From assembly GCA_037443085.1 (NCBI GenBank), contig JBBIPA010000002.1, positions 13,739 through 77,738 on the forward strand: 64,000 nt of DNA, written 5' to 3'. This document shows, in pieces, positions 5,778 to 21,488 of this stretch. The notes beneath the pieces are model-generated. The model did not search any database and was not told where the DNA came from. It worked only from the letters and a program-made list of their open reading frames with translations. This stretch comes from Chloroflexota bacterium (GTDB taxonomy: Bacteria > Chloroflexota > Dehalococcoidia > GIF9 > UBA5629). The translations under genes were made by a program, and so were the position numbers. Every line of letters begins with the position of its first letter. The stretch's first letter is position 1.

Positions 5778-6873
5778 AATAAATCACTGCAATTTGGCTA
5801 ACCATATGGAAAATCAACACAAAAACAATTTAATAATATGTAACGTTCATTTCTGGATTATCGTTCTTATGATAATGGGCATTACTCTGCTGTATTACGG
5901 ACGAAATCTTAATGTTGCTGACGGTTTCCCTTGGTTTGACGCAATAAGGATTTTGGAAATTGCCTATAGTGTTCACGGCAGTTTATTTACAATCCCGTTT
6001 ATTTATGCGGCTTTTGTTTTTGGCTGGCGGGAGGCTATTATAGTCTGGTCGATCTCCTTGTCGATTATATCGTTTAAGATCTTCAATCTTTCCTTTGGCC
6101 CTGCCCCATTAGTGCGCAATATTTTATCTTCGCTGATTCCTTTGTCTGTGGTTATTTTTTTAACTCTCGAACAAAATAGGAGAAAAAAAGAAAGAGAGAG
6201 CTTAAAAAAACGCGAGGATGAAAGAAGGTTGTATTTAGGTCAGGTGATTAAAGCACAGGAGGATGAGCGACATCGTATTGCACAGGAACTGCACGATGAC
6301 TTCTTACAGTCATTAATAGTCATTGCTAACCGTGCTCATAAACTAATGCTTAATAATGGCAGAGGTTCTGCCACGCATGCGGAGCAGGTTTGTTATATAA
6401 GGGATGAGGCCCTTCGGCTTTCCGAAGATTTACGGAGGTTAAGTCGTGATTTAAGACCTAGTATTTTGGATAATCGAGGATTAGTATCGGCTCTGAGAGA
6501 ACTGGCAGCTCGTTTTAATCAGGAATATGGAATCCATACAAATGTTATTACTGATTCATTATCTTCGAAGATCAATCCAGAAGCTGAGGTTATGTTATTT
6601 CGCATAATTCAAGAAGCCTTAAACAATGTTAGACGCCACGCAGAAGCCACTGAAGTTACAATTAGCGTGAAATGTCTTTCAAAACACCTAAAACTGATTG
6701 TGAAGGATAATGGTAAGGGCTTCGATATACCAAAACCAATTAGTCGTTTCACGATCGAAGGTAAGCTAGGGATCGCTGGAATGCGTGAAAGAGCCAAATA
6801 TCTGGGGGGTAATATTTCTATTACCTCTCAAAAAGGCAAGTATACCATACTAGAAGTTACTTGCCCGAAGTAA
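5737..6873 (+). CDS. Sensor histidine kinase (membrane domain, HisKA_3, HATPase_c)
   Basis: N-terminal TM helices, an H-box HRIAQELHDDFLQSL, and the C-terminal ATPase motifs NNVRRHAEA, DNGKGF and GIAGMRERAKYLGG. Confidence 0.8.
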   Translation: MLREVVLLALTLSKINHCNLANHMENQHKNNLIICNVHFWIIVLMIMGITLLYYGRNLNVADGFPWFDAIRILEIAYSVHGSLFTIPFIYAAFVFGWREAIIVWSISLSIISFKIFNLSFGPAPLVRNILSSLIPLSVVIFLTLEQNRRKKERESLKKREDERRLYLGQVIKAQEDERHRIAQELHDDFLQSLIVIANRAHKLMLNNGRGSATHAEQVCYIRDEALRLSEDLRRLSRDLRPSILDNRGLVSALRELAARFNQEYGIHTNVITDSLSSKINPEAEVMLFRIIQEALNNVRRHAEATEVTISVKCLSKHLKLIVKDNGKGFDIPKPISRFTIEGKLGIAGMRERAKYLGGNISITSQKGKYTILEVTCPK

Positions 6874-6933
6874 TAAGGTCAGAGTAATCTTTAAAACCCA
6901 TTTGTGATAATTCGTACGCGTAGCTTCAAGTGC

Positions 6934-6954
6934 GCTCAATATTGAAGATTGAGC
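6934..6954. terminator. Hairpin GCTCAAT-ATTGAAG-ATTGAGC between the convergent kinase and hydrogenase protease genes; a possible bidirectional terminator.
   Basis: 7 bp perfect stem with a 7 nt loop in the 90 nt convergent intergenic region. There is no strong U tract. Confidence 0.3.
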
Positions 6955-6964
6955 ATTGCTGGAA

Positions 6965-7435
6965 CTATGGGCGGGGCTTTTTGTCCACTTCCTGCAAGAC
7001 CATCTCCACGCATTTGGGGATGGCCTTTTTGACCTTGGTGGTGCAGTGTTCGCTGAAGGTGGTGACGTCGGCTACCTCGATGGCGAATATGACGATTTCT
7101 GCGGGCAATGATAGCCCCAGTTTGCGGCCAAGCGCAAGGGCGGAGGCGAAGTTGACGTTGTGGGTGGAGGCGGTGTGGCGGGTGACAGCCAGGTCATTGG
7201 AGTTGAGTCGGTAGACCTGCCCCGTTTTTCCCTTCCTGGTCTGGATAGCGTCGATGACGATGGCTTTGTGGTAACCAGCGAGCAAGTCCAGCAGACCCAG
7301 ACCTGCCAGGCTTGCCTCAGTCACCGTGATGTCTTTATGGTCGGCGAGGATTTTTTTAAGCTCTCTGGCAACGTAGATGCCCACACCGTCATCGCAGAGT
7401 ATCTCGTTGCCCAGCCCCAGAACCAGGGTTTTCAT
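6965..7435 (-). CDS. Hydrogenase maturation protease (HyaD/HycI/FrhD family)
   Basis: MKTLVLGLGNEILCDDGVGIYVAREL is typical of this family. The start is trimmed from the ORF-track 7579 to ATG 7435 because the longer ORF would run into mvhA, which ends at 7446. Confidence 0.8.
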   Translation of the reverse strand: MKTLVLGLGNEILCDDGVGIYVARELKKILADHKDITVTEASLAGLGLLDLLAGYHKAIVIDAIQTRKGKTGQVYRLNSNDLAVTRHTASTHNVNFASALALGRKLGLSLPAEIVIFAIEVADVTTFSEHCTTKVKKAIPKCVEMVLQEVDKKPRP

Positions 7436-7445
7436 GCGTAGCTTA

Positions 7446-8915
7446 TTATAAGTTCTGGGTGAGCCTTTTGACCACTTCGCCCTTGCTGTCGCGGATGATG
7501 ACCTCCATTGGAGCCTGTCCCGGCAGGGTATGCGTGGCGCAGCCGAAGCAGGGGTCATAGGGGCGCCAGGCCATCTCAATGCGGTTGAGCAGCCCTTCGG
7601 TGATTTCCTTGCCCGGCTTAATCATTTCCATGGCAGCTTTTTTGATGGACATATTAATAGGCGCTGCATTGTTGACCGTAGCCACGATAAGGTTGGCTTT
7701 CTTGATGACGCCGCGCTCGTCGGTTATGTAGTGGTGGGTGAGCGTGCCGCGAGGAGCTTCCACGATGCCTATGCCCTCGTCAGGTTTGGCTGTCGGGATG
7801 GTGCGAATGTCAGGGCTGGTTATTTCGGGGTCCTGGCTGAGCTCCAATAGTCTTTCGGCAGCATAGAGCAGCTCAACAAGGCGTGCCCAGTGAGTGGCTA
7901 GAGTCTGGTGGACAGGCTTGCCGCCCAGCGTAGAGTAGAACTTTTCATAGGCTTCCTGTGCCAGAGGCGTGGCCATACCGTCAGCGGCGTTCAGCCGGGA
8001 AAGAGGCGTGGACCGGAACAGGCCGCTGTCCTTGCCATCAACGAAGCCTTTCCAGCCGATCTTCTTGAGATAGGGGAATTTGATATAGGTCCAGGGCTCA
8101 ACATGCTCGGCAACATGCTCCAGGTATTCACGCGGCGAGTATTTGACGAACTCCTTGCCGTCAGGGTCAACCACTCTCACCTTGCCATCGTAGAAGTTGA
8201 CCTTGTTCTTATCATCAACCATGCCCATATAGTAGGTGCGATGGGTGTAGGCATCGCTGAGAATCATGTCCACATAGGCTTTGTTCTTGAGCACGATGTC
8301 GTCAAAGACTTTCAGGGAGAGCTTGGCGAACTCCACCGCGTCTTTTGCAGTCTGTTCCACCTCTTTTCTCTCTTCTTCGTTCAGCCCCTTGCTGATGCCG
8401 CCGGGCAGGCCGAAGACGGGGTGCACTGCTCTGCCGCCGAGCATCTGGATGATGCGGTGATTTTTCATCCGGGTGTTGATGACCGCTTTGCCCAGCTCCA
8501 GCCCCACCTTGGCGATCACGCCCAGTATATTGCGCTCGGCCACAGGGGCATCGGGACCCATGACAAAGTCGGGACCGCCGAGGATATAGAAGTGGGTGGT
8601 GTGGTCGGTCACATAGAAAGCGCTGTAGAACAGCTCGCGGAGCTTCCTGGCGGCGCTGGGTGGTTCGGCATGGAACAAGTCATCCAGCGCCTTGGTAGCA
8701 GCCATGTGGTGGGCTTCAGGGCACACGCCGCAGATGCGCTGGGTGATTTGAGGCATATCCTCAGCCAGACGCCCTTCGGCAAACTTCTCAAACCCGCGTA
8801 GCTCCGGTATCTGGAGGTAGGCATTATCCACCCCTCCAGCGTCGTTGAGGAAAATTTCTATCTTACCGTGACCCTCGAGACGGGTAATCGGGTCTATGGT
8901 TACTCTTTTTGTCAT
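7446..8915 (-). CDS. mvhA: [NiFe] hydrogenase large subunit, MvhA/VhuA type (group 3c). The C-terminal Ni ligands are cysteines, not selenocysteine.
   Basis: N-terminal RICGVCPEAHHMAA (RxCGxC) and C-terminal DPCFGCATH motifs, 489 aa. Confidence 0.9.
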   Translation of the reverse strand: MTKRVTIDPITRLEGHGKIEIFLNDAGGVDNAYLQIPELRGFEKFAEGRLAEDMPQITQRICGVCPEAHHMAATKALDDLFHAEPPSAARKLRELFYSAFYVTDHTTHFYILGGPDFVMGPDAPVAERNILGVIAKVGLELGKAVINTRMKNHRIIQMLGGRAVHPVFGLPGGISKGLNEEERKEVEQTAKDAVEFAKLSLKVFDDIVLKNKAYVDMILSDAYTHRTYYMGMVDDKNKVNFYDGKVRVVDPDGKEFVKYSPREYLEHVAEHVEPWTYIKFPYLKKIGWKGFVDGKDSGLFRSTPLSRLNAADGMATPLAQEAYEKFYSTLGGKPVHQTLATHWARLVELLYAAERLLELSQDPEITSPDIRTIPTAKPDEGIGIVEAPRGTLTHHYITDERGVIKKANLIVATVNNAAPINMSIKKAAMEMIKPGKEITEGLLNRIEMAWRPYDPCFGCATHTLPGQAPMEVIIRDSKGEVVKRLTQNL

Positions 8916-9883
8916 TTTATCCTCGCCCTCCTTAGTAACGAGTCAGGCAAACTGTAGCGGTAGAAGGTACCTACCGGGTCGGGGATATCGTCGACGATTT
9001 TTTGAATTTCATTTTTGTCGCTAGAATCGATGACCGAAGCTACGGCGCTGAGGAAATGGGCGCCCTGGTCAGTGACACCCTGTGCTGGTCCGTAGCAGCC
9101 GGTGCAGGGCATATTTGCCTGCGGGCAGGGTGCTCCACAGCCGCCCCGGGTAGCCAGCCCGGCACATAGCAATCCCTGCTCCAGGAGGCATATCTGCGGG
9201 TCGGTGGTAATTTCATATGTTCGGTAGAACTTCTTGACCTTTTTCACATCACGCTTTCGCTGGCAGTCATCGCAGACTGCCTTGGCATTGTGACTTATCA
9301 CCGCGCCCACCGGTGGTAACTTGCCCTCGATAAGCGCTTCCAGCGCCATCCAGGTGGTCTTTTCTTCCGGCGGGCAGCCGGGGATGATGTATTCCACAGG
9401 TACTGTTTGAGGTAGGCTTTTCACTGTGTCATAAAGCTCGGGAATAGTAAGCTCGCCCTCAGTCACCTGGTGCTTCGTCTGGGGAGTGACCTTATTGGGG
9501 TTATCGGTAGACTGCGTTTCCAGATACACCCGCTCGAAAATCGACTGCTTATCGAACAGGTTTGCCAGACCGGGAATACCGCCTACATAGGCGCAGGCGC
9601 CGTAGGCAATGAGCACTTTCGACTTTTCCCGGAGCAGTTTGGCCAAGTGCTCCTGCTCGGAAGTCCTGATGCCGCCGTTGAACAAGCAGACATCGATGCT
9701 CTTATCGGGCATAGCCTCGACGTCCTTGTACTTGACATCGATTGCTACAGGCCAGAACACGATATCGGCGACTTCAGCCAGCTTGAGCAGTTTCTCGCCG
9801 ATCTGGAGCTGTGCAATTTCACAACCGCCGCAGCTAGCCGCCCAGTAGAGAGCCAGTTTCAGCTTAGCCATGAGCACCTCCAT
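8912..9883 (-). CDS. mvhG: [NiFe] hydrogenase small subunit, MvhG type
   Basis: N-terminal LALYWAASCGGCEIA proximal-cluster motif and multiple Cys clusters. It overlaps the mvhA start. Confidence 0.85.
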   Translation of the reverse strand: MEVLMAKLKLALYWAASCGGCEIAQLQIGEKLLKLAEVADIVFWPVAIDVKYKDVEAMPDKSIDVCLFNGGIRTSEQEHLAKLLREKSKVLIAYGACAYVGGIPGLANLFDKQSIFERVYLETQSTDNPNKVTPQTKHQVTEGELTIPELYDTVKSLPQTVPVEYIIPGCPPEEKTTWMALEALIEGKLPPVGAVISHNAKAVCDDCQRKRDVKKVKKFYRTYEITTDPQICLLEQGLLCAGLATRGGCGAPCPQANMPCTGCYGPAQGVTDQGAHFLSAVASVIDSSDKNEIQKIVDDIPDPVGTFYRYSLPDSLLRRARIK

Positions 9884-10292
9884 TACCGCGGCTTAGACCT
9901 AGCGGTCCCAGTTCCCTGAGCTGCTCCGTCATCTCGTTGACGATGGCGGCGAATCGGTCGCCTTCAGAAGCTGAGACCCAGTCCAGCCTGACTCGTTTAT
10001 CTTCTATGCCGAACTGGTTAAGCATTTTCTTGAGCAGGGGTATCCGGCGGGCTGCTTTAACATTACCTTCAAGGTAATGACATTCGCCGGGATGTCAGCC
10101 GCAGACCAGTACGCCATCTGCTCCTTTTTCGAAGGCTTTGAGGATAAAGGTAGGCTCGACGCGGCCGCTACACATCACCCGCACCACGCGCATATTGGGG
10201 GCATATTTCTTGCGGGAGGTGCCTGCCAGGTCAGCGCCAGCATAGGAACACCAGTTACATAAGAATCCTACAATCTTCGGCTCGTAGCTCAT
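9864..10292 (-). CDS. mvhD: MvhD, the hydrogenase delta subunit that bridges Hdr, selenocysteine-containing. The in-frame TGA at 10095-10097 is read as Sec.
   Basis: ORF-track 10095..10397 ends ...GADGVLVCG at a TGA. The same frame continues [48 protein letters not shown]... to TAA at 9864-9866, rebuilding the conserved MvhD GC(U)HPGxCHY core. The start is at [17 protein letters not shown] (ATG 10292), and the plus-strand tcat at 10289-10292 gives an ATGA overlap with the hdrA stop. Confidence 0.8.
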
Positions 10293-12250
10293 ACTAAAGC
10301 TCCTTCTATCTGTGCCATAATCTGCTCGGTGGTGAAATGCCTGGTAATGATGGCAGCGCTGGGACAGGCGGCAGCGCAGGTGCCACAGCCTTTGCACAGC
10401 GCTTCGTTGATTACGGACACTTTTTTATTCTCATCAAAGGAAATGGCATTGTAAGAGCACATTCCAATACAGGTCTTGCACCCGGAGCAAAGCTCCTCCT
10501 GCACCACGGCGGTGGCAGCCTCGATTTCCACACTGCCCTTGCTGATTATGGAGAGTACTCGTGCTGCAGCTGCTGATGCCTGGGCGACGGTATCAGGAAT
10601 ATCCTTCGGTCCCTGGCAACAGCCGGCGATAAATACGCCGTCGGTGGTGGTAGCTATGGGGTCAAGCTTGGGATGCTTTTCCAGGAAGAAGCCATCTTTG
10701 CTTCTGCTGATGGAGAGCTGTCGGGCAACTTCAGCCACATCAGCCCTTGCCTCCAGTGCGGTGCTCAGCACCACCATGTCAACGGGGATGCGGCGCTGCT
10801 TGCCGAGCAAGGTGTCTTCACAGATAACCACCAGCTTTCCCTGCTCTTCAGGACTTTCGGCGGCGTCGGTAACCTCGGCAGCACGGCCGCGGATGAAATT
10901 GACACCTTCTTCCTGAAGTCGGTTGTAGAACTCTTCATAGCCTTTTCCGAAGCAGCGCAGGTCGATGTAGAGCTGGTAGATATCGGCATCGTGATTTTTT
11001 TCCCTGATAAGGTGGGAGAACTTGAGCGAATACATGCAGCAGACTCGGGAGCAGTACTCATGGTAGTTGCTGTCACGGCTGCCCACACAATGAAGGATAG
11101 CCACGCTCTTGGGCATCGAACCGTCTTTGCGCATTATCTTGCCTCCAGTGGGACCTGAGGCGCTGCTCATTCTTTCGAACTGAATGCCGCTGATGACATT
11201 GTCCAGCCGTCCGTAGCCGAACTGGGAGACAATGGTGGGGTCGAAGTTGTCGAAGCCGGTGGTGACGATGATGCAACCCACGTTCACCTCGACTGTTTTC
11301 TCCGTTTGCTCGAAATCGATAGCCTTGGCTTCACAGAACTTTTCACAGGCGCGGCATTTACCTTTGAGGAAGTAGGTGCAGTGCTCGCGGTCGATGACGG
11401 GCACATTGGGCACTGCCTGCGGGAAGGGGGTATAGATTACTTTCCTGGTGCCGACACCGCCGTCAAATTCGCTTGATGCCTTCATGGGGCATTTCTCCTG
11501 GCAGGTGCCACAGCCATTGCATTTGCTTTCATCTACATAGCGGGGCTTCTGTTTAATTTTAACCTTGAAATTACCCACGTATCCTGAAACATCCACGATT
11601 TCGCTATAAGTCATCAGCTCGATGTTTTTGTGTGACCTCACCGAGGCCATTTTCGGGGTGAGTATTCAGGCGCTACAGTCTAAAGTGGGAAAGGTCTTGT
11701 CCAGTTGCGCCATATGGCCACCGATGGAAGGCTCGCGCTCCACCAGAAACACCTTGTTACCGGAGTCGGCGATTTCCAGTGCTGCCTGGATACCAGCGAT
11801 GCCGGCGCCGACGATGAGGGTGTTGGCGTTTACCGGCACCTCTTTGGTTTCCAGCGGCTGATGGTAGTAGACGCGTCTTACTGCACCACTCACCGCTGAC
11901 TTGGCTTTCTCCGTGGCTGCTGCCTTGTCTTCGATGACCCAGGAACACTGCTCGCGGATGTTCGCCATTTCAAAGAAGTAGGGGTTCAAGCCGGCGCTGG
12001 CCAGGGCTTGTCGGAAGGTTTGCTCATGCAACCTGGGTGAGCATGAGGCAACCACCACACGGTTGATTCCCTGCTCCTTAATGTCGTTTTTTATCAGCTC
12101 TTGCCCCGGGTCGGAACACATAAATTTATATTCGCGGGCAAGGGCTACTGATGGTAGACCTTTGGCGAAATTAGTCACCTGCTCAACATCGACCGTGCCG
12201 GCGATGTTAGCGCCACAATGACAGATATAGACGCCTATTCTGGGCTCCAT
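10289..12250 (-). CDS. hdrA: Heterodisulfide reductase subunit A (HdrA, FAD and FeS flavoprotein), selenocysteine-containing. The in-frame TGA at 11666-11668 is read as Sec.
   Basis: ORF-track entries 11666..12313 and 10289..11650 share one frame and are separated only by TGA plus ILTPK. Joined they read ...[48 protein letters not shown]..., matching the conserved HdrA FPTxDCSxC(I/L)LxPKM segment with Sec at a Cys position. The start is at [13 protein letters not shown] (ATG 12250), which has an AAGGAGG RBS. Confidence 0.85.
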
Positions 12251-12264
12251 TCGCGCCTCCTTAA

Positions 12265-13143
12265 TTATTTGCTCAAATATCCAGCCAGGGCTTTTTGGGG
12301 TGAAACGATACATTTCCCCAGGCCTAAGTCTTTGCTTTCAATGCCGAATGCCACCCCCATGAGTTGAGTGAAGAATAATACGGGGATGTTGAATTTGGTG
12401 TTAAATTTGTTATTTACCTTGCTCTGGTAGACATCGAGGTTGGTCTGACAGAGCGGGCAAACAGTGACTATGCACTGAGCACCGTTGTTGGCAGCGCTGT
12501 TAAACAGTTTATGCAGCAAGCCCAGGGCAATATCTTCTTCAGATAAGATGAGCGACCCTCCGCAGCAGCGGGCTTTCAGGGGGAAGGGCACTGCCTCGGC
12601 TCCCAGGCTGGTAACTAAACCATCGAGTGATTTAGGAAATTCTGGGTGGTCGAAGCTGGGTCCCGGCCTGACAATCTGACAGCCATAGTATGGGGCTACC
12701 TTCAGCCCGCTGAGGTCTTTTTTCACCCGTGTCTTAACCTGCTCGGAGCCAATATCATTGACGAACACATCGAGGAGATGGCGCACCTTCACCGTGCCGT
12801 TATATTCCAGCTTGCCGGCTGCCAGTGCTTCTTTTACCTCACCTCTCAGTTCAGGATATTCTTTGAGGGCAGTGTTGGTTTTTATGAGGAGGACAAAGCA
12901 GGCGCTGCAGGGGGTGACCAGGTCAAAGCCTCTTTTCTCCGCCAGCGCCAGGTTGCGCGCTGAGCAGCAATAGGAAGCCAGTTCATCCACAGAAGAATAT
13001 GGCGTTGACCCGCAGCAGTTCCAATTCTCCAGCTCGATAAGTTCCACGTCCAGCGCTTTGGCCACGGCCTGGGCGGAACGGTCATAGGCCGTCGAGTTGC
13101 CATGGGCGGCAGAGCAGCCGGGAAAGTAGGTATAGTATTTCAT
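12265..13143 (-). CDS. hdrB: Heterodisulfide reductase subunit B (two CCG domains)
   Basis: Contains NWNCCGSTP and a second CCGGSL motif. 292 aa. Confidence 0.85.
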   Translation of the reverse strand: MKYYTYFPGCSAAHGNSTAYDRSAQAVAKALDVELIELENWNCCGSTPYSSVDELASYCCSARNLALAEKRGFDLVTPCSACFVLLIKTNTALKEYPELRGEVKEALAAGKLEYNGTVKVRHLLDVFVNDIGSEQVKTRVKKDLSGLKVAPYYGCQIVRPGPSFDHPEFPKSLDGLVTSLGAEAVPFPLKARCCGGSLILSEEDIALGLLHKLFNSAANNGAQCIVTVCPLCQTNLDVYQSKVNNKFNTKFNIPVLFFTQLMGVAFGIESKDLGLGKCIVSPQKALAGYLSK

Positions 13144-13721
13144 TATCGGGTTCCTCCTATTACGATGGCCTCAGCCTTGTCCAGGATGGCTTTAAGCTGG
13201 GCCTCTGCCTCCGGTTTCATTCTTTTGGCTTTGGGGGACAGTCGCCCGTGCCTCAGCAGGCTGAGTGCTTGAGGCAGCATCTTGATGGCGCGTAAGGGAT
13301 TGGTCAGCAGATAGTACCACGTCATGAAACCCATTTCCGGGACACTGCCGATGCTATAGACAAAGTCACTGAAGCTGCGATACATCTTCGGTGTGTAACT
13401 GCGCCCGCTGCTGACATTATTGCGCAATGCCAGGCATTCCAGCGTGTGCATCAGGTCTGTAGGCTTGATGCCCCGCGGACAGCGCACCGTGCACAGGTAA
13501 CAGGAGAGACAGAGCCAGGGTGAATGACTGGAGAGTACCTCGTCTCGCATGCCCGCCCGCGCCATGGCGATAAGTTGACGGGGCGTATAGTCCATCCTGG
13601 TGGCATTGGGACAGGATGCAGAACAGGTGCCACACTGGATGCAGAGCTTGACCACTTCACCGCCAGGGATGGCGCTGATTTCATTTACGAAATTAGTAGT
13701 GCCTTGCTTCTTTATTTCCAT
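13143..13721 (-). CDS. hdrC: Heterodisulfide reductase subunit C (two 4Fe-4S clusters)
   Basis: Carries the CIQCGTCSASCP and CLSCYLCTVRCP ferredoxin motifs. Its stop overlaps the hdrB start as TAATG. Confidence 0.85.
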   Translation of the reverse strand: MEIKKQGTTNFVNEISAIPGGEVVKLCIQCGTCSASCPNATRMDYTPRQLIAMARAGMRDEVLSSHSPWLCLSCYLCTVRCPRGIKPTDLMHTLECLALRNNVSSGRSYTPKMYRSFSDFVYSIGSVPEMGFMTWYYLLTNPLRAIKMLPQALSLLRHGRLSPKAKRMKPEAEAQLKAILDKAEAIVIGGTR

Positions 13722-13968
13722 TGTACACCAACCTATGCTTTATTTGATGACTTTTGCGACTTATTTGGTGGGGCCTTGTGGTATGATTATTGTTGTAGTT
13801 TCATGTTGCCTGGTTAAGTATAACACCATTTCGTATCTTGACCAAACGGCTTCAGTTATACGTTATCTACACGCTAAAATTCGCCAGAATCCGCTGCAAG
13901 AAGGGGGGAGGAGCGAGATTAGGCTGAGGCTACCTGCAGCGGATCCTGGCAGTTAAAATAGGGAGGTA

Positions 13969-14145
13969 TTATCGTCGGGCAAGCTCTTCTGCGCCTTTGA
14001 GCACCATCTCTCTTCGCTTCTGGCGCTGGCGTGCATCGCGCATCACCTGGAGCAGGCCGCTGACGTTCATATACCAGATGAACGCTATAGGGAAGGCGAT
14101 GATCATTATGCCTATGATGATCGCCACTATGAAGTACCAGGGCAT
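13969..14145 (-). CDS. Small single-TM protein (58 aa), a paralog of the 14173..14355 gene. It is below the 60 aa cut-off, so it is absent from the ORF track.
   Basis: Manual translation gives MPWYFIVAIIIGIMIIAFPIAFIWYMNVSGLLQVMRDARQRQKRREMVLKGAEELARR. An AAAGGAG RBS sits 8 nt upstream. Confidence 0.5.
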   Translation of the reverse strand: MPWYFIVAIIIGIMIIAFPIAFIWYMNVSGLLQVMRDARQRQKRREMVLKGAEELARR

Positions 14146-14172
14146 TTCGCTTTCTCCTTTCTTTGCCTAAAT

Positions 14173-14355
14173 CTATTGAGTATTTCTCTCGGTTACCGCT
14201 GCCATTCTTTTCTGTTGCTCTCGGGCAGCCCGTCTCTTCCGCGCCTCGCGCACGGAGGCATAAATACCGCCGACGTTCAGGTACCAGATAAATGCCACCG
14301 GAAAGAGAATGATGGGTATGGCTATGATTAAAGCTACAATAAATTCCCAGTGCAT
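14173..14355 (-). CDS. Small single-TM protein (60 aa) with a basic C-terminal tail
   Basis: MHWEFIVALIIAIPIILFPVAFIWYLNVGGIYASVREARKRRAAREQQKRMAAVTERNTQ. A strong AAGGAGGTG RBS lies upstream, and the protein is about 50% identical to the adjacent small ORF. Confidence 0.55.
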   Translation of the reverse strand: MHWEFIVALIIAIPIILFPVAFIWYLNVGGIYASVREARKRRAAREQQKRMAAVTERNTQ

Positions 14356-14462
14356 TTCTCACACCTCCTTTCTGTCCACTCCGTTTGTTCTTCCAATCCC
14401 CTTTTATATCTGAGGGTAGAGGTAAGAGAAAGGAGAGAGGAACTAAGTCGGCGAAACTTTTT

Positions 14463-14488
14463 GTTGCTCTTGCCTGTTGCTCTTGCCT
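14463..14488. promoter_or_regulatory. Perfect 13 bp tandem direct repeat GTTGCTCTTGCCT x2 in the divergent intergenic region; a candidate regulator binding site.
   Basis: The exact repeat lies between the small-protein/hdr operon (minus) and the response regulator gene (plus). Confidence 0.3.
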
Positions 14489-14678
14489 CTATCCACTGTA
14501 TCTAGGCTAACATAGTCGTGCGAAACTGACTTCCGCCCTGATGCTTGTTTTAAACTGTTGAAAATACCTGGTTTGCCGGCAGAAATTGAGTATTTATGCT
14601 TATTGCGCTACTGCCCGGGCGAAACGCCGAGATGTAGCTGAGAATAGGCTCTATTCAAAGCAGGCTGCTGCGATTGTC

Positions 14679-14687
14679 TGGTATAAT
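14679..14687 (+). promoter_or_regulatory. Extended -10 promoter element TGGTATAAT for the response regulator gene
   Basis: A TGnTATAAT match sits about 30 nt upstream of a GGGAGAGGAGG RBS and a TTG start at 14719. The ORF-track ATG at 14674 overlaps this element. Confidence 0.35.
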
Positions 14688-14718
14688 GGACACAGGTATA
14701 CGGGAGAGGAGGCGTACC

Positions 14719-15384
14719 TTGGCGAAGATTAAAATTTTAATCGCTGATGACCATGCGGTGGTTCGCGAGGGGACACGGCGGATATTGAACCAGGAAGAGG
14801 ACATGGAAGTTGTGGCGGAAGCCAGCGATGGGGATGAGGCGGTAAGTCTGGCGGCTCAGTATAGACCTGATGTGGCTATCATCGATATCTCCATGCCCCG
14901 GCTCGACGGTATTGAGGCTACCAGGCAAATAAAAACTTCCTATCCGGAGATGGTGGTGTTAATTCTCAGCGCCTATGATGATGACCAGTTTGTCTTCAGT
15001 TTGCTTGAGGCCGGTGCTGCTGGATACCTGCTAAAAAGTGTGCACGGGCAGGAGCTGGTAGATGCTGTGCGGGAAGTGTATGCCGGCGAATCAGTATTGC
15101 ATCCTTCTATTGCTAAGAAGGTGTTGAGCAAGTTTGCCAGGACACCCGGCAGGGTGGTGGAGGAGAAGCCTGATGAGCTATTGAGCAAACGGGAGATAGA
15201 GGTGTTGAAGCTGGTGACCAGGGGATTAAGCAATAAAGAGATAGCCGATGAGCTTTGTTTGAGCATACGGACAGTGCAGGGGCACGTGGGCAATATCTTC
15301 AATAAGCTGAAGGTAAGCTCCCGGACGGAGGCGGTGGTGAATGCTTTGAAGAAGGGGTGGGTGACACTTGATGACGAGGCTTGA
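14719..15384 (+). CDS. Two-component response regulator, NarL/FixJ (LuxR) family
   Basis: KIKILIADDHAVVREG...DVAIIDISMPRLDG REC domain plus a LuxR HTH (REIEVLKLVTRGLSNKEIADELCLSIRTVQGH). The start is moved to TTG 14719, downstream of the promoter, and is preceded by an RBS. Confidence 0.85.
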   Translation: MAKIKILIADDHAVVREGTRRILNQEEDMEVVAEASDGDEAVSLAAQYRPDVAIIDISMPRLDGIEATRQIKTSYPEMVVLILSAYDDDQFVFSLLEAGAAGYLLKSVHGQELVDAVREVYAGESVLHPSIAKKVLSKFARTPGRVVEEKPDELLSKREIEVLKLVTRGLSNKEIADELCLSIRTVQGHVGNIFNKLKVSSRTEAVVNALKKGWVTLDDEA

Positions 15385-15411
15385 AAGCTGTTTTGCTGTA
15401 ATTGAGGCATA

Positions 15412-17346
15412 GTGATGCTGCCGCAACTATCGTTAAGCTGGATTAGAGTTGTTCGCAAACCGACGTTCTGGCTTATCATCGTACTGCTGGCGTTCATCAC
15501 CGTTTTGCATTACCGCGAGGCGGTACTGATACCGTCCTTCCTCGCTGACCTGATAACGCAACTGGGCTTAAGCCGGCATGCCTTTGAGAGAATACTGTAC
15601 CTGGCGGTTATTATCTGGTCGGGTTTTTTGTTCGGCTGGAAGGGCAGTGTGGCTACTTCACTGGTGGCTCTGGTTTGCATGCTGCCCCGGGCACTGGTCA
15701 TTTCCACAACTCCCCAGGATGCCCTTTTCGAGACTGGCACCGTTTTCATCGTGGGCAATCTGGTAGCGTTTACTTTTGAGGCACTGCGCCGGGAACGGGA
15801 GCATCGTATTAGGCTGGCTGCTCTCAATGAAATCGTGGGCGCGGCCTCACAGTCACTGGAGATGAGTCAGGTGTTGCACAGCAGTGTAGATAACATTGTG
15901 AATGTGATGAAGGTGGATGCCGTACTGCTGTTTTTGCTGGATGAGGAGAGTGAAGAGCTTTCTCTGGCGGCGTACAAAGGTGTGTCAGACGAATTTGTGC
16001 GCAGTGTGGGTAAACTCAAGCTGGGTGAAGGTCTTAACGGCATGGTGGCTCAGACCGGGGAACCTGCGTATATCGAAGATGCCTCTATAGACCCCAGACT
16101 GACCAGGATGGCAGTGGCAGAGGAGGGCATCCACTCCGAGATGATTGTGCCGCTGAAATTAAAAGGAAGGGTGATGGGTACGCTGTGTGTGGCTGCTCAT
16201 AGGCGCTATGAATTTACTCGGGACGAGGTGAAAACGCTCACTGCTATCGGTAATCAGATTGGTGTTGCCCTGGAAAATGCCCGGCTTTATGAAAAAGAGC
16301 GTGAGGTTGCTGAAAAGCTTCGTATCTCTGAGGAAAGATACCGTCAGCTATTCGAGAATGCCAACGATGCCATCTGGATTAACGACGTCGACGGTAATAT
16401 TGTTTCGGCAAACGATGCGGCTAACAGGCTGGTGGGAGGTAACCTGGAAAGCCTATCACATACCAGCAGCAGGTCTTCTCTTTCCGACGAAAGCCTGCGT
16501 CTGGCAAATGAAATCAGAACCAGATTGCTACGAGGAGAGGCCGTTGATGAACCTTATGAACAAAAGCTGGTAGGAGAAGGCGGAGTTGAAAGGATTTTGA
16601 AGCTAACCACCAATGTATTTAAAGTGGATGGCAAGCCAACCGGCTTTCAACATATCGCCAGAGACGTGACCCAGGAAATACGGATGCAGGAAAATCTGCG
16701 TTTCTATCTGGAGCAGGTGACCAAGGCTCAGGAAGATGAGAGGATGCGCATTGCCCGGGAGCTTCACGATGATACCATTCAGGCTCTGGTGGCTCTGGCG
16801 CGGGAGCTAGATATGCTGGCCTCCAGCGAAGAGGGAATCTCCGAAGACAAGAAACACCTTATGGAGAATTTGAGGCAGCAGGCCAATACTACCATGGCGG
16901 GGGTACGCCGGCTGAGCCAGGATTTGCGTCCGCCCACCCTGGATCGCCTGGGGCTGGCAGCAGCCCTGGACTGGCTCGCCTCCAATGTGGAGGGCCACTC
17001 TGGCATAGCGGTGACGATGAAAAAAAATGGCAAGGAGAGGAGACTTGCCAGCGAAGTGGAGTTGCTGCTATTCCGCATTACCCAGGAAGCGCTGAGTAAT
17101 GTATGGCGTCATTCCCAGGCAACGCATGCTGAGGTGATAGTAGAGTTTGACCGCGACAGAATCAGGATAACGGTTAAAGATAATGGCAAGGGATTTGCCC
17201 TGACTCATCCTGCGGATGACCTGTCCCGGCGGGGTAAGTTTGGCCTGGTGGGGATGAAAGAGCGCGCCAAGCTATTGGGCGGCAAGCTTGAAGTGGATTC
17301 CAAACCAGGCAAAGGCACTACTATTAGCGTTGAGGCGCCGATATAG
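15412..17346 (+). CDS. Sensor histidine kinase (membrane domain, GAF, PAS, HisKA_3, HATPase_c)
   Basis: N-terminal TM helices, a GAF-like segment (DAVLLFLLDEESEELSL...), a PAS segment (YRQLFENANDAIWINDVDGNIV), an H-box RIARELHDDTIQAL, and an ATPase domain with DNGKGF. Confidence 0.85.
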   Translation: MMLPQLSLSWIRVVRKPTFWLIIVLLAFITVLHYREAVLIPSFLADLITQLGLSRHAFERILYLAVIIWSGFLFGWKGSVATSLVALVCMLPRALVISTTPQDALFETGTVFIVGNLVAFTFEALRREREHRIRLAALNEIVGAASQSLEMSQVLHSSVDNIVNVMKVDAVLLFLLDEESEELSLAAYKGVSDEFVRSVGKLKLGEGLNGMVAQTGEPAYIEDASIDPRLTRMAVAEEGIHSEMIVPLKLKGRVMGTLCVAAHRRYEFTRDEVKTLTAIGNQIGVALENARLYEKEREVAEKLRISEERYRQLFENANDAIWINDVDGNIVSANDAANRLVGGNLESLSHTSSRSSLSDESLRLANEIRTRLLRGEAVDEPYEQKLVGEGGVERILKLTTNVFKVDGKPTGFQHIARDVTQEIRMQENLRFYLEQVTKAQEDERMRIARELHDDTIQALVALARELDMLASSEEGISEDKKHLMENLRQQANTTMAGVRRLSQDLRPPTLDRLGLAAALDWLASNVEGHSGIAVTMKKNGKERRLASEVELLLFRITQEALSNVWRHSQATHAEVIVEFDRDRIRITVKDNGKGFALTHPADDLSRRGKFGLVGMKERAKLLGGKLEVDSKPGKGTTISVEAPI

Positions 17347-17362
17347 TGGTTTCAGAAGAAAG

Positions 17363-19813
17363 TTAGCCTTTTTTCTTTGCCTTGGCTTCGGGCTCGGCGA
17401 ATTGTTTTAGCCTGGCTGCCATATCCTTCAGTTGCCTGGCTACTTTATAGTTGATGCTGTCTTTAGGATAAATCCCGTCTTTTCTCTTCTTGCCTGCGGG
17501 CATGCCGGTGAGTACTTCCAGGCCTTCATCGATGCTGCTTACGGAGTAGATGTGGAACTTGCCCTCCTTTACCGCATCGATTACTTCCGTCCGGAGCATC
17601 AGGTGAGAGACATTCTGACGGGGTATCATCACCCCCTGGTCTCCAGTAAGTCCTTTGGCTTTACATACCCGGAAGAAGCCTTCGATCTTCTGATTGACGC
17701 CGCCGATAGCCTGTATTTCACCTTTCTGGTTTACCGAGCCAGTGACGGCGATATTCTGCTTCAGCGGCACATCGGACAGGCTGGAGAGTAAAGCATATAG
17801 CTCTGTGGAGGAGGCGCTGTCTCCCTCCACGCCTTCATAAGACTGCTCGAAGCAGAGGCTGGCAGATAACGAGAGGGGATTATCCTGAGCGTATTTCCAG
17901 CCCAGATAGCCGCTGAGGATAAGGACGCCTTTATCATGGATTTTGCCGCTGAGCTGGGACTCCCGCTCAATATTAATAACGCCTCCACGCCCCAGGAAGG
18001 TCCTGCAGGTGATACGCGATGGTCTGCCGAAGGAGACATCGCCGAGGCTGTAGACGCTGAGTCCATTCACCTGCCCCACGGCAGCGCCGGCAACATCGAT
18101 CATGATGATACCACGTGCTATCATTTCTTTGATATGCTCATAGGGCAGATTATGGCGGAAAAATCTCTCCTCGACCGCCTTGTCTACATGACTGGCCGAT
18201 ACCAGCTCCACCTTTTCCTTACGTGCCCAGTATTCCGCCTCCTGCACCAGTTCCCGTATCTGGGCGAAGCGGGAGGTCAGCTTTTCCTGGTCGCCTGCCA
18301 TGCGTGAGGCATACTCCACTACCTTAGCTACGCCGGTGCGGTCGAAATGATGCATCTCGCACTTCTCACAGCAGCCGGCGACAAAAGCAGCGAAATGAAA
18401 CATATTCTCTTTGGTTCTATCAATCTGATAGTCGAAGTCGGCCTTCACCTTGAATATTTCCCAGAACTCTTCATCGTAGATGGAGAGCAACTGGTACAGT
18501 GTGACATCGCCGATGAGGAGCACCTTGACGTTGATGGGCATCGGCTGTGGCCGCAGGCCCTGAGGCGCGATAAGCCCCAATCCTTCCAGAGGCTCTTCAA
18601 TGCGCACCTCTTTAGTCTTGATAGTCCGCTTTAGCGCCGGCCAGACGCCCGGATTGGTCAGGACATCGGTGGCGTTTAGCAGCAGATAGCCGCCATTCGC
18701 CAGATGAAAAGCTCCCGGCTTCAGCATGGTATGGTCGCTGAGGTAGCCGCCGAAAAGAAAACGCCGTTCAATCCTGCCGAAAAGGTTGATGTAGGTGGGG
18801 TTGGACTCGATTATGACCGGCGGTCCTTTCAGCTCGCTATTATCCACGAAGACGTTTACCTGGAAGGGAAGGAACGGGTCACGGCCCTGCATCAGGAAAC
18901 TGGCAGGTATACCTAGCACAGCTTCTGGCTGTGCCTCCTTTTCTTTAAACAGGTTCAGATTGTCCAGAGTGTGTGACTGCAGCTCCATGAGAAACTGATG
19001 GACGAGTTCTATATTCTTGTATTCCTGGAGCAAGTCGATGAAGAGACGTGTCACGGTGAAGCCGGCGGTGGTCTTGTCTCCTTCTCGCAGCTTTTCCTCG
19101 GCATTTTTCTCCAGGTCTCTCACCTTTTCGTAGGTAGCCTGTAGCTTTTTCAGCAGGTCATCGCGCTTGTTTTCCAATTCTTTCCTGGCTGGTGCTTCCA
19201 GAGCCATGAATTCCTCTTCGGATATGGGTTTACCATTTGTCAGTGGAATCAATGCCTGCCCCAGGGGTGTCACCTGTATGGTAAAGCCCTGACGTTGTGC
19301 TTCCTCTCTCAGCTCTGAGGAGAGCCGCTGCCTTTCCTCCTGCGCTGCCTCGATGATGGCTTTCCTCTCCGACTTGTACGTTTCGCTGGAGAAAGCCTTG
19401 GCCAGGTCATCCTTGAGTCTTTGCAGCAGACCGCTGACCTGATTGCGAAACACCTTGCCTTTACCCTGTGGCAGGCTCAAAATGCGGGGACGGTCGGAAT
19501 CGGCAAAGTTGTACAGGTAGCACCAGTCCTGTGGTGGCTTCAGTTGATCCGAGGCTTGCTTCTCCTTGAGCAGCTTATCAATATGGGTTTTCACGGCTGA
19601 GGTTTTGCCGGTACCTGCAAGGCCGGCCACGTAGACATTGTAGCCATCATGGCTCATGGATAAACCAAAGTCGATGGCGCCGATAGCTCTATCCTGACCG
19701 ATAAACTCGCGTAATGGCGCCAGGTCTTTGGTGCAGTCGAAGTCAAAGATTTTGGGGTCGCAGTGCCAGCGCAGTTTCTTTGCCGGTACCTCATACTTGG
19801 CAATATTCACCAT
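17363..19813 (-). CDS. Lon-like ATP-dependent protease (AAA+ domain plus S16 peptidase domain; COG1067/LonB-like, stand-alone)
   Basis: Walker A motif GLAGTGKTS; a C-terminal Lon S16 domain with GVEGDSASSTELYALLSSL (catalytic Ser) and VNQKIEG (Lys). 816 aa. Confidence 0.85.
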   Translation of the reverse strand: MVNIAKYEVPAKKLRWHCDPKIFDFDCTKDLAPLREFIGQDRAIGAIDFGLSMSHDGYNVYVAGLAGTGKTSAVKTHIDKLLKEKQASDQLKPPQDWCYLYNFADSDRPRILSLPQGKGKVFRNQVSGLLQRLKDDLAKAFSSETYKSERKAIIEAAQEERQRLSSELREEAQRQGFTIQVTPLGQALIPLTNGKPISEEEFMALEAPARKELENKRDDLLKKLQATYEKVRDLEKNAEEKLREGDKTTAGFTVTRLFIDLLQEYKNIELVHQFLMELQSHTLDNLNLFKEKEAQPEAVLGIPASFLMQGRDPFLPFQVNVFVDNSELKGPPVIIESNPTYINLFGRIERRFLFGGYLSDHTMLKPGAFHLANGGYLLLNATDVLTNPGVWPALKRTIKTKEVRIEEPLEGLGLIAPQGLRPQPMPINVKVLLIGDVTLYQLLSIYDEEFWEIFKVKADFDYQIDRTKENMFHFAAFVAGCCEKCEMHHFDRTGVAKVVEYASRMAGDQEKLTSRFAQIRELVQEAEYWARKEKVELVSASHVDKAVEERFFRHNLPYEHIKEMIARGIIMIDVAGAAVGQVNGLSVYSLGDVSFGRPSRITCRTFLGRGGVINIERESQLSGKIHDKGVLILSGYLGWKYAQDNPLSLSASLCFEQSYEGVEGDSASSTELYALLSSLSDVPLKQNIAVTGSVNQKGEIQAIGGVNQKIEGFFRVCKAKGLTGDQGVMIPRQNVSHLMLRTEVIDAVKEGKFHIYSVSSIDEGLEVLTGMPAGKKRKDGIYPKDSINYKVARQLKDMAARLKQFAEPEAKAKKKG

Positions 19814-19979
19814 ACCTATGCTCCTGTGTTTTTTTCCTGCCTTGGTAGCTCGTCGTTGTTCATATGAAAACCTGGTTTGGGGTGCTGTTGTATACTGTAG
19901 GCAACTGGTGAGATTTTGTCAACAAGATTTTACGATGAGGCTATAGAATTGTCAGGAATTAATATGAGGGAGACTTTGC

Positions 19980-20186
19980 ATGAGAGAATGTACTGTAGAG
20001 AAAAATAAAGCTAAGTGCAATTGCACTTATGAGCCGTGTTCCCGGAAGGGCATTTGCTGCGAGTGCTTGAGCTATCATCGCAGCGCCGGCGAGCTGCCCG
20101 CCTGCTATTTCTCTGCTGATGTGGAGCGGACGTACGACCGCTCCATTGAGGAATTCTTAGAAATGTGCCGGCGCCGGGGACGGTGA
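19980..20186 (+). CDS. Cysteine-rich small protein (CxCx5Cx5CCxC), hypothetical
   Basis: 68 aa, preceded by a GAGGGAG RBS; 7 Cys in the first 35 residues. Confidence 0.5.
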
Positions 20187-20201
20187 CAGGCTACTCTACC
20201 T

Positions 20202-20732: not shown

Positions 20733-20739
20733 TTAACCC

Positions 20740-21396: not shown

Positions 21397-21488
21397 CGCC
21401 TACCTCCTATCTTCCTAACATTAGCACGCGTCACTGCTTAGCCCATGTTACGCCGAAAACCTGCCTGAAGGCAAGAAGACGGGGGGAA

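What the first reader, a model, noticed from the sequence alone, without database searches (positions are those of the whole stretch)
10289..12313. HdrA is a single selenoprotein gene that the ORF track splits at an in-frame TGA (11666-11668)
Seen in sequence: ORF-track entries 11666..12313 and 10289..11650 are in the same frame and are separated only by TGA plus 15 nt. Read through, the join is ...[35 protein letters not shown]..., which is the conserved HdrA FPTxDCSxC(I/L)LxPKM segment with the TGA exactly at a conserved Cys. Downstream of the UGA the mRNA (UGA AUA CUCACC CCGAAAAUGGCCUC GGUGAG G) can form a 6 bp stem CUCACC/GGUGAG with a G/U-containing loop, in the position of a bacterial SECIS. 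Sec-containing HdrA occurs in Methanococcus and in some bacteria, so this is not new. It does mean the organism decodes Sec and that automated annotation will mis-call the gene.
Basis: partly seen in the sequence, partly recalled or inferred. Interest (0 to 1): 0.8.

Follow-up and report, generated by a model that had tools for sequence, protein, structure and literature searches.

The report
Selenocysteine codon inside one hdrA gene
The two ORFs are one heterodisulfide reductase A gene whose in-frame TGA encodes selenocysteine at a conserved cysteine position; this is a well-known selenoprotein family, so the result is mainly an annotation fix.

Summary
A minus-strand TGA at 11668..11666 joins two same-frame ORFs into a 653-residue HdrA (10289..12250). 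It aligns end to end with solved HdrA structures. The TGA falls on Cys197 of the 5ODC enzyme, which is Sec197 in Methanococcus maripaludis. All 120 best full-length homologues have Cys there. More than 240 public loci carry TGA at this codon with the frame continuing. TGA is otherwise a normal stop here (8 of 32 confirmed genes, including hdrA itself).

One correction. The supported SECIS is UGGCCUC-GGU-GAGGUCA at 11633..11649, a 7 bp stem with a GGU triloop 23 nt after the UGA. It pairs in 33 of 33 distinct relatives, shows three compensatory pairs, and sits in the deepest trough of synonymous variation in the gene.

The next gene, mvhD, has a second Sec-TGA (10097..10095) with a hairpin of identical geometry. 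No selA, selB, selD or tRNA-Sec lies in the window, so the machinery is untested. Public gene calls split hdrA and truncate mvhD. Sec-HdrA and Sec-MvhD have been described since 2006, so this is already known and of low interest.

The parts
10289..12250 (-). hdrA, a single CDS of 653 residues plus the TGA stop at 10291..10289, with selenocysteine at residue 195
   Evidence: Translation. End-to-end phmmer match to HdrA structures 5odc_A, 8rvu_a and 7bkb_A. Pfam finds FAD/pyridine-nucleotide-disulfide and 4Fe-4S ferredoxin domains.
12256..12262 (-). Shine-Dalgarno AAGGAGG, 5 nt upstream of the ATG at 12250
   Evidence: Read from the sequence. The public call of a 194-aa N-terminal fragment implies the same start.
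11666..11668 (-). In-frame UGA read as selenocysteine (U195), within the motif C192-S-A-U195
   Evidence: Aligns to Cys197 of 5ODC. The position is Cys in 120 of 120 full-length homologues. TGA is conserved at this codon in 120 genome loci and 120 metagenome loci, with the ORF continuing.
11633..11649 (-). Best-supported bacterial SECIS: UGGCCUC GGU GAGGUCA, a 7 bp stem (nt 20-26 with 30-36 counted from the U of UGA) and triloop G27 G28 U29
   Evidence: All 231 cells pair in 33 distinct relatives, 3 pairs show compensatory changes, and 0 of 500 shuffles reach this. It sits in the lowest synonymous-codon entropy window of 450 codons scanned. MFE is -8.6 kcal/mol, z = -2.8. It meets all four bSECIS consensus criteria.
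11637..11662 (-). GGUGAG, nt 7-12 with 27-32). It is present in this sequence but not supported as the functional element
   Evidence: Only 86.9% of cells pair, two pairs are frequently broken, and 243 of 500 shuffles do as well. The 14-nt loop and the 9-11 nt spacing lie outside the consensus.
9864..10292 (-). mvhD (FlpD family), 142 residues, a second selenoprotein gene. Its ATG overlaps the hdrA stop (ATGA)
   Evidence: The read-through aligns over residues 1-132 with solved MvhD chains (8rvu_F, E = 6e-51), with U66 on the first Cys of GCHxGDCHY. The public call truncates it to 65 aa.
10095..10097 (-). In-frame UGA of mvhD (U66)
   Evidence: TGA is conserved in 18 loci of the same lineage.
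10061..10079 (-). mvhD SECIS-type hairpin CAUUACCU UGA AGGUAAUG (nt 19-26 with 30-37), with triloop U27 G28 A29. It has the same geometry as the hdrA hairpin
   Evidence: MFE is -7.8 kcal/mol, z = -2.9. The block CAU UAC CUG GAA GGU AAU is invariant in all 18 related TGA-bearing loci; the window itself has CUU for CUG, giving loop UGA instead of GGA. Cys-type paralogues lack it. It is one of only 3 of 2176 TGAs in the window with this geometry.
12265..13143 (-). hdrB (two CCG domains)
   Evidence: Pfam PF02754, E = 2.3e-26.
13143..13721 (-). hdrC (4Fe-4S dicluster protein)
   Evidence: Pfam Fer4_8 and related families.
8912..9871 (-). mvhG-like [NiFe] hydrogenase small subunit
   Evidence: Pfam PF01058. 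The public call is 319 aa.
7446..8915 (-). mvhA-like [NiFe] hydrogenase large subunit. The C-terminal motif DPCFGCATH has Cys, not Sec
   Evidence: Pfam PF00374. Translation.
6965..7435 (-). HycI-type hydrogenase maturation protease
   Evidence: Pfam PF01750. The public call is 156 aa.

Best explanation
hdrA (10289..12250, minus strand) is one gene for a 653-residue selenoprotein. It is the flavin- and iron-sulfur-containing subunit A of an HdrABC-MvhADG-type electron-bifurcating complex. The complex is encoded by the operon hdrC-hdrB-hdrA-mvhD-mvhG-mvhA-protease in a Dehalococcoidia-like bacterium. The UGA at 11668..11666 is decoded as selenocysteine (U195) rather than stop. The cause is a 17-nt hairpin starting 16 nt after the codon: a 7 bp stem and a GGU triloop, with 23 nt between the UGA and the loop. 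This hairpin is inferred to act as a bacterial SECIS that recruits SelB-GTP-Sec-tRNASec to the ribosome. U195 replaces the second Cys of the CxxC-like motif in the thioredoxin-reductase-like domain. That residue is Cys197 in the crystallised enzyme, where it ligates the N-terminal [4Fe-4S] cluster of the partner HdrA. In M. maripaludis it is Sec197, where a Cys-Sec bridge between that cluster and FAD has been proposed. The adjacent mvhD uses the same mechanism at U66. Shown here: gene unity, the Cys/Sec alignment, conservation of the UGA, the conserved RNA hairpin and its geometry, and the mis-annotation. Inferred: actual Sec insertion, SelB binding, and the chemical role of U195.
For: The read-through matches solved HdrA structures end to end, with the TGA on Cys197. 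All 120 best full-length homologues have Cys there. TGA sits at the same codon in 120 genome loci across Desulfobacterota, Chloroflexota, Bacillota, Planctomycetota and Asgard archaea, and every one has an open HdrA frame beyond it. A further 120 metagenome loci show the same. The hairpin at nt 20-36 pairs in 33 of 33 distinct relatives, which share only 68-75% nucleotide identity across the operon; it has 3 compensatory pairs and 0 of 500 shuffles match it. An unbiased scan of 450 codons puts the deepest synonymous-variation trough at codons +6 to +11 (0.08 bits against a gene mean of 1.19; the next unrelated window is 0.69). The hairpin meets the published bSECIS consensus for loop, stem, G position, spacing and MFE. 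Five Cys-type hdrA paralogues in the same loci lack both the hairpin and the synonymous invariance. mvhD carries a second Cys-aligned TGA with a hairpin of the same geometry. Only 3 of 2176 TGAs in the window have that geometry, and two of them are these. TGA terminates 8 of 32 family-confirmed genes, including hdrA itself. Literature: Sec197 in M. maripaludis HdrA (PMC13518236); Sec-HdrA and Sec-FrhD operons in bacteria (PMC1794560); Sec use and SelB in Chloroflexi (PMC4959059; PMC5736913).
Against: No selA, selB, selD or tRNA-Sec is present in the 64-kb window or in the 240 related loci, which were scanned for tRNA-Sec only. The rest of the genome could not be read. No Rfam family matches the hairpin. 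Compensatory changes come from a few sequences (L132, L135, L178, L205, L210). There is no protein-level evidence.
Confidence: 0.93

Rival explanations
1. The gene is genuinely split: an N-terminal 194-aa protein ends at the TGA, and a separate 453-aa protein starts at the ATG at 11650.
For: Gene callers produce exactly this. An ATG lies 15 nt after the TGA.
Against: That ATG encodes the conserved Met of the family motif C-I-L-x-P-K-M. The 15-nt spacer translates to ILTPK, which is the consensus of Cys-containing homologues. No purine-rich ribosome-binding site precedes the ATG; the sequence there is CACCCCGAAA. A split would cut through the FAD-binding domain in the solved structure alignment. 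The TGA is conserved at this one codon in more than 240 loci.
Confidence: 0.03
2. The TGA is a nonsense mutation, a pseudogene lesion, or a sequencing or assembly error.
For: A single in-frame stop could arise this way.
Against: The same TGA is found in an independent NCBI assembly and in more than 240 diverged loci. Both halves remain under purifying selection. A conserved RNA hairpin follows the codon.
Confidence: 0.01
3. UGA is reassigned genome-wide to another amino acid, as in genetic codes 4 or 25, or is read through without SECIS or Sec.
For: Two in-frame TGAs occur in one operon.
Against: TGA ends 8 of 32 confirmed genes, including hdrA itself. A six-frame scan found only these two TGAs flanked by long coding frames on real genes. 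Both align to Cys at positions reported as Sec sites in these families.
Confidence: 0.02
4. Sec is inserted, but the functional SECIS is the reader's hairpin (nt 7-12 with 27-32), or the two overlapping hairpins alternate as a switch.
For: That hairpin is the MFE structure in this sequence, at -9.5 kcal/mol. Four of its six pairs are kept in all relatives.
Against: The four kept pairs involve first or second codon positions or the invariant 3' arm that belongs to the other hairpin. The two pairs that include freely varying third positions break in 17 of 33 and 9 of 33 sequences with no compensation. The loop size and the 9-11 nt spacing violate the consensus. mvhD has no equivalent structure, but it does have the nt 19-37 hairpin.
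Confidence: 0.06

Closest known systems
[quoted passage not shown]
   Same: The protein family and the selenocysteine position are the same: U195 here aligns to residue 197. The partner VhuD/MvhD is also a selenoprotein. The gene order hdrA-mvhD-mvhG-mvhA is the same.
   Different: That enzyme is archaeal, so its SECIS is expected in the 3' UTR as in other archaea (PMC13188914). Here a hairpin lies inside the coding sequence just after the UGA, as in bacteria. The hydrogenase large subunit here has Cys, not Sec. The host is not a methanogen, so the disulfide substrate is unknown.
HdrA of Methanothermococcus thermolithotrophicus (PDB 5ODC) and Methanothermobacter wolfeii
   Same: The 653-aa read-through aligns with 5odc_A over residues 2-651 at E = 2.5e-235. 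All four domains are present.
   Different: Those enzymes have Cys197, described as a ligand of the partner protomer's N-terminal [4Fe-4S] cluster (PMC9012536). Here that residue is Sec.
Bacterial Sec-HdrA and Sec-FrhD(MvhD) operons of Deltaproteobacteria and Clostridia (Zhang et al. 2006, PMC1794560)
   Same: The UGA is at the same Cys. hdrA and frhD/mvhD selenoprotein genes are adjacent, with the hydrogenase subunits downstream. The SECIS is in-frame and bacterial in type.
   Different: The host lineage is Chloroflexota, class Dehalococcoidia. There is no GlpC selenoprotein and no Sec in the hydrogenase large subunit. The SECIS sequence is lineage-specific: a GGU triloop at nt 27-29, against stem GGAUGCC/GGCAUCC with loop GGUC at nt 31-34 in many of the Desulfobacterota-type loci.
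E. coli fdhF SECIS and the bSECIS consensus (PMC13188914)
   Same: It is a hairpin immediately 3' of the UGA with a small apical loop beginning G-G/U. Spacing is within 16-37 nt and MFE is at or below -7.5 kcal/mol.
   Different: No bulged U or extended lower helix was detected. The loop is a triloop rather than GGUC. SelB binding has not been tested.

Membership tests
HdrA (heterodisulfide reductase subunit A, MvhD-associated type) | Full-length sequence homology to structurally characterised HdrA | tested here: met
   phmmer against 5odc_A gives E = 2.5e-235 over residues 2-651. Chains 8rvu_a, 9sfi_A and 7bkb_A give similar matches.
HdrA (heterodisulfide reductase subunit A, MvhD-associated type) | Domain set: N-terminal Cys-rich domain, FAD-binding thioredoxin-reductase-like domain, inserted ferredoxin domain and C-terminal ferredoxin domain | tested here: met
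   Pfam finds Pyr_redox_2, FAD_oxidored and NAD_binding_8 at residues 141-221, and Fer4 at 237-258 and 581-637. The N-terminal CHCG...C...C...C residues align with 5ODC.
HdrA (heterodisulfide reductase subunit A, MvhD-associated type) | Operon context with hdrB (CCG domains), hdrC and mvhD | tested here: met
HdrA (heterodisulfide reductase subunit A, MvhD-associated type) | Flavin-based electron bifurcation and disulfide reductase activity | not testable with these tools
   This needs biochemistry. The physiological disulfide in a non-methanogen is unknown.
Bacterial selenoprotein | In-frame UGA aligned with Cys (or Sec) in homologues | tested here: met
   The position is Cys in 120 of 120 full-length homologues, Cys197 in 5ODC and Sec197 in M. 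maripaludis.
Bacterial selenoprotein | UGA conserved in orthologues, with coding sequence conserved on both sides | tested here: met
Bacterial selenoprotein | UGA is otherwise a stop codon in the genome | tested here: met
   8 of 32 family-confirmed genes end in TGA, including hdrA.
Bacterial selenoprotein | Sec machinery (selA, selB, selC/tRNA-Sec, selD) in the same genome | tested here: inconclusive
   None is in the 64-kb window (ARAGORN; NCBIfam on 30 large ORFs). The rest of assembly GCA_034432715.1 is not readable with these tools. SelB and Sec enzymes are reported in Chloroflexi.
Bacterial selenoprotein | Selenium actually incorporated | not testable with these tools
   This needs 75Se labelling or mass spectrometry.
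bSECIS consensus (Zhang and Gladyshev model as summarised in PMC13188914) | Apical loop of 3-9 nt on an upper stem of 4-16 bp, with G in one of the first two loop positions | tested here: met
The hairpin at nt 20-36 has a 7 bp stem and loop GGU.
bSECIS consensus (Zhang and Gladyshev model as summarised in PMC13188914) | Spacing of 16-37 nt between the UGA and the apical loop, and MFE at or below -7.5 kcal/mol | tested here: met
Spacing is 23 nt and MFE is -8.6 kcal/mol.
bSECIS consensus (Zhang and Gladyshev model as summarised in PMC13188914) | Structure conserved by covariation in orthologues | tested here: met
   All cells pair, 3 pairs have changes on both sides, and 0 of 500 shuffles reach this. 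The sister lineage has a register-shifted hairpin that is 97.5% paired and includes an A-U for G-C swap.
Rfam SECIS families | Covariance-model match | tested here: not met
   There were no hits at gathering score in the window and no SECIS hit at E up to 10 in 9950..11750. This may reflect how short and lineage-specific the hairpin is.

The most novel reading that the evidence does not exclude
This Dehalococcoidia lineage uses a minimal 17-19 nt SECIS, a 7-8 bp stem with a G-containing triloop at exactly nt 27-29 after the UGA. The same geometry is shared by two different selenoprotein genes in one operon. The RNA requirement may also have reshaped the protein: codon +10 is AGG (Arg) in 29 of 33 lineage members, where 119 of 120 Cys-containing homologues have Gly, and A31 forms a Watson-Crick pair with U25. 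Several relatives also carry a Cys-type hdrA-mvhD paralogue beside the Sec-type copy. That could be a selenium-responsive isoenzyme pair like Vhu/Vhc in Methanococcus.
Probability: 0.4. Interest if true: 0.3.

Novelty: already known. Interest (0 to 1): 0.2.

Why it matters
The practical value is annotation. In the public gene calls for this organism, hdrA is split into 194-aa and 453-aa pieces and mvhD is truncated to 65 of 142 residues. Metabolic reconstructions would therefore miss or mis-size two subunits of the only Hdr-Mvh bifurcating hydrogenase complex in this region. The result also marks the organism as a selenium user. It gives a clean, comparatively validated SECIS for this Dehalococcoidia lineage that could seed a lineage-specific selenoprotein search. 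It does not change what is known about HdrA or Sec decoding.

Tried and rejected
- Rfam found nothing at gathering score over the whole window. An E-value scan up to 10 around both TGAs gave no SECIS family, only two chance hits.
- ARAGORN found no tRNA at all in the window and no tRNA-Sec in the 240 fetched loci.
- NCBIfam scans of the 30 largest ORFs found no SelA, SelB or SelD. The 644-aa ORF at 15412..17346, a SelB-sized candidate, is a GAF/PAS histidine kinase.
- Folding 81 nt around the UGA gave z = 0.29, which is uninformative. Only the isolated 24-nt hairpin stands out.
- A single consensus structure for the ASVRSH and VSVGRH lineages was considered and dropped. Their stems are shifted by one nucleotide (pair sums 56 against 58), so they were tested separately.
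- The synonymous-only variation in the ILTPK spacer within the metagenome set was not used as evidence, because the search pattern itself imposed those codons.
Full report
**Observation**

On the minus strand the sequence reads GAC TGT AGC GCC TGA ATA CTC ACC CCG AAA ATG, with the TGA at 11668..11666. ORFs 11666..12313 and 10289..11650 share one frame and are separated by that TGA plus 15 nt. Translating from the ATG at 12250 gives 653 codons with a single internal stop at codon 195. That ATG has AAGGAGG 5 nt upstream. The ATG at 12313 lies inside hdrB.

**What the protein is**

With Cys placed at the stop, the protein matches solved HdrA chains end to end. The match to 5odc_A covers residues 2-651 at E = 2.5e-235, and 8rvu_a, 9sfi_A and 7bkb_A match similarly. 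There is no indel at the junction, and the stop falls on the second Cys of FPTNDCSIC-ILAPKM, which is Cys197. Pfam finds the FAD-binding domain and two ferredoxin regions.

The neighbours on the same strand form one operon:
- hdrC at 13143..13721
- hdrB at 12265..13143, with two CCG domains
- mvhD at 9864..10292
- an mvhG-like small subunit at 8912..9871
- an mvhA-like [NiFe] large subunit at 7446..8915, with C-terminal motif DPCFGCATH (Cys, not Sec)
- a HycI-type protease at 6965..7435

The best full-length homologues are 70-74% identical. Where a source names them, they are called Dehalococcoidia or Chloroflexota.

**Is the TGA a Sec codon?**

- All 120 best full-length homologues have Cys at the aligned column, and the flanking residues [14 protein letters not shown] are almost invariant.
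Every hit is an HdrA homologue whose frame stays open and HdrA-like for all of the up to 33 codons read after the TGA. The hosts span Desulfobacterota, Chloroflexota, Bacillota, Planctomycetota and Asgard archaea.
- A metagenome scan restricted to the Chloroflexi-type motif also hit 120 rows and gave 124 distinct downstream sequences.
- TGA is a normal stop in this genome. It ends 8 of 32 family-confirmed genes, including hdrA itself, whose TGA overlaps the mvhD start as ATGA.
- A six-frame scan for TGAs flanked by long open frames found only two on real genes, in hdrA and mvhD.

Together these exclude a pseudogene, a sequencing error and a genome-wide reassignment.

**The SECIS**

I number from the U of UGA as nt 1, so the window coordinate equals 11669 minus n.

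That pairing is real and is the local minimum-energy fold at -9.5 kcal/mol. It does not survive comparison across 33 distinct sequences of the window's lineage (peptide [12 protein letters not shown] and close variants). Pair 12-27 is broken in 17 sequences and pair 9-30 in 9, without compensation. The structure does no better than shuffles, 243 of 500 of which reach it.

An overlapping and mutually exclusive hairpin is supported instead. U20-C26 pairs with G30-A36, with triloop G27 G28 U29, at window 11633..11649.
- It pairs in 231 of 231 cells.
- Three pairs change on both sides: C23-G33 to G-C, U25-A31 to C-G, and C26-G30 to A-U.
- No shuffle out of 500 reaches it.
- Folded alone it gives -8.6 kcal/mol with z = -2.8.

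These relatives are only 68-75% identical to the window across the operon. I ran an unbiased synonymous-codon entropy scan over 450 codons in 25 of them. The deepest trough is at codons +6 to +11, at 0.08 bits against a gene mean of 1.19. The next unrelated window is 0.69. Third positions at nt 9, 12, 15 and 18, and at nt 39-48, vary freely. Those at nt 24, 27, 33 and 36 are fixed, or in one case compensated.

The sister lineage (VSVGRH, 81 distinct sequences) has a hairpin shifted by one nucleotide, G21-C27 with G31-C37, and loop G28 U29 N30. The third loop base varies freely. It is 97.5% paired and includes a G-C to A-U swap. Many of the Desulfobacterota-type loci use stem GGAUGCC/GGCAUCC with loop GGUC at nt 31-34.

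The published bSECIS model sets four criteria: an apical loop of 3-9 nt on a stem of 4-16 bp, G in one of the first two loop positions, 16-37 nt between the UGA and the loop, and MFE at or below -7.5 kcal/mol (PMC13188914). The nt 20-36 hairpin meets all four, with 23 nt spacing.

Five Cys-type hdrA paralogues found in the same loci show synonymous variation across this segment. They keep only 3-4 of the 7 pairs in this register.

**Independent support from mvhD**

The next gene has an in-frame TGA at 10097..10095, in the context VLVCG-*-HPGECHY. The 142-residue read-through aligns with solved MvhD chains (8rvu_F, E = 6e-51). The stop falls on the first Cys of GCHxGDCHY.

The TGA is conserved in 18 loci of the lineage. 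All 18 keep the block CAU UAC CUG GAA GGU AAU unchanged; the window itself has CUU in place of CUG. The four Cys-type paralogues found in these loci (one of them, in L135, being that locus's only mvhD) vary at synonymous sites and lose the pairing.

The hairpin is C19-U26 pairing with A30-G37, with triloop U27 G28 A29 here and GGA in relatives. MFE is -7.8 kcal/mol, z = -2.9. The stem closes at 26-30 and the loop is at nt 27-29, exactly as in hdrA.

I scanned all 2176 TGA triplets in the window for this geometry. Three matched, against about 0.7 expected by chance. Two of the three are the hdrA and mvhD Sec codons. The third, at 13576-13578 on the plus strand, lies on the strand opposite hdrC with stop codons in frame around it.

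**What could not be shown**

The window has no tRNA gene. Its 30 largest ORFs include no SelA, SelB or SelD. The fetched loci contain no tRNA-Sec. Rfam has no matching family. The Sec machinery of this organism is therefore untested. At lineage level, Sec-containing dehydrogenases and SelB have been reported in Chloroflexi and Dehalococcoidia (PMC4959059; PMC5736913).

**Mechanism and role of U195**

Decoding is inferred to follow the standard bacterial route, from the SECIS geometry. SelB-GTP-Sec-tRNASec binds the hairpin as the ribosome reaches the UGA.

U195 completes a C192-x-x-U195 motif in the thioredoxin-reductase-like domain. In the crystallised enzyme the equivalent Cys197 ligates the N-terminal [4Fe-4S] cluster of the partner HdrA protomer (PMC9012536). 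In the M. maripaludis cryo-EM structure, Sec197 and a Cys show density interpreted as a possible selenylsulfide relay between that cluster and FAD. Those authors state that its role remains unresolved (PMC13518236). Nothing here distinguishes between these two roles.

**Comparison with what is known, and novelty**

Sec-HdrA and Sec-FrhD/MvhD, and their clustering with the hydrogenase subunits, were described in archaea, Deltaproteobacteria and Clostridia in 2006 (PMC1794560). A 2026 review covers them again (PMC13188914). This locus is an ordinary member of that family in a Chloroflexota host. The only new elements are the lineage-specific SECIS and the correction of which hairpin it is.

The public gene calls on NCBI GCA_034432715.1 (contig DAOUAX010000079.1, which matches the window at 6866..21650 almost exactly) split hdrA into 194 + 453 aa and truncate mvhD to 65 aa.

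**Verdict**

The feature is already known, and the interest is low (0.2).

Noticed in passing
window 9864..10292 (-), TGA at 10095..10097: mvhD, directly downstream of hdrA, is a second selenoprotein gene. U66 sits on the first Cys of GCHxGECHY, followed by a SECIS-type hairpin at 10061..10079. Public gene calls truncate the protein to 65 aa.
   Followed up: yes
window 11636..11638 (-), codon +10 after the UGA: Codon +10 is AGG (Arg) here and in 29 of 33 lineage members, whereas 119 of 120 Cys-containing homologues have Gly. Its first base, A31, pairs with U25 in the SECIS stem, so the RNA structure may have driven an amino-acid change.
   Followed up: partly
L122, L126, L131, L141, L147, L154, L164, L181, L182, L187, L192, L200 (metagenome loci): Many related contigs carry two Sec-type hdrA genes about 2-3.7 kb apart. 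This recalls the hdrA-hdrA arrangements reported in Deltaproteobacteria. The window has only one hdrA.
   Followed up: no
L132, L143, L201, L205, L240: These relatives encode a Cys-type hdrA near the Sec-type copy, and L143 and L201 also a Cys-type mvhD. These could be selenium-dependent and selenium-independent isoenzyme pairs like Vhu/Vhc in Methanococcus.
   Followed up: partly
window 7446..8915 (-): The MvhA-like hydrogenase large subunit ends in DPCFGCATH, with Cys at the position that is Sec in [NiFeSe] enzymes. Only two of the three selenoproteins commonly found in this operon type use Sec here.
   Followed up: partly
window 13576..13578 (+): This is the only other TGA in the window with the nt 20-36 hairpin geometry. 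It lies on the strand opposite hdrC with stop codons in frame around it, and it matches the chance expectation of about 0.7 per window.
   Followed up: yes
window 13722..14673: About 950 bp lie between hdrC and the divergently oriented response regulator and histidine kinase pair (14674..17346). The region holds only two small called ORFs of 58 and 60 aa with no family hit. It may be the regulatory region of the hdr-mvh operon.
   Followed up: no
window 24693..37079 (-): This is a long same-strand cluster of central-carbon genes. It encodes succinate dehydrogenase/fumarate reductase subunits B and A, Fe-S fumarate hydratase, malic enzyme, isocitrate dehydrogenase, an aconitase-family large subunit, an oxaloacetate decarboxylase alpha / pyruvate carboxylase B-type protein and a methylmalonyl-CoA carboxyltransferase.
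   Followed up: no
window 61664..62866 (-): A 400-aa ORF matches the 'methanogenesis marker 16 metalloprotein' model at E = 4.4e-37, well below its curated cutoff. This is unexpected in a bacterial genome.
   Followed up: no
window 6866..21650 compared with L241: The NCBI contig DAOUAX010000079.1 spans this stretch with matching ends and length but is not an exact substring of the window. The window therefore probably comes from a different, near-identical assembly.
   Followed up: partly
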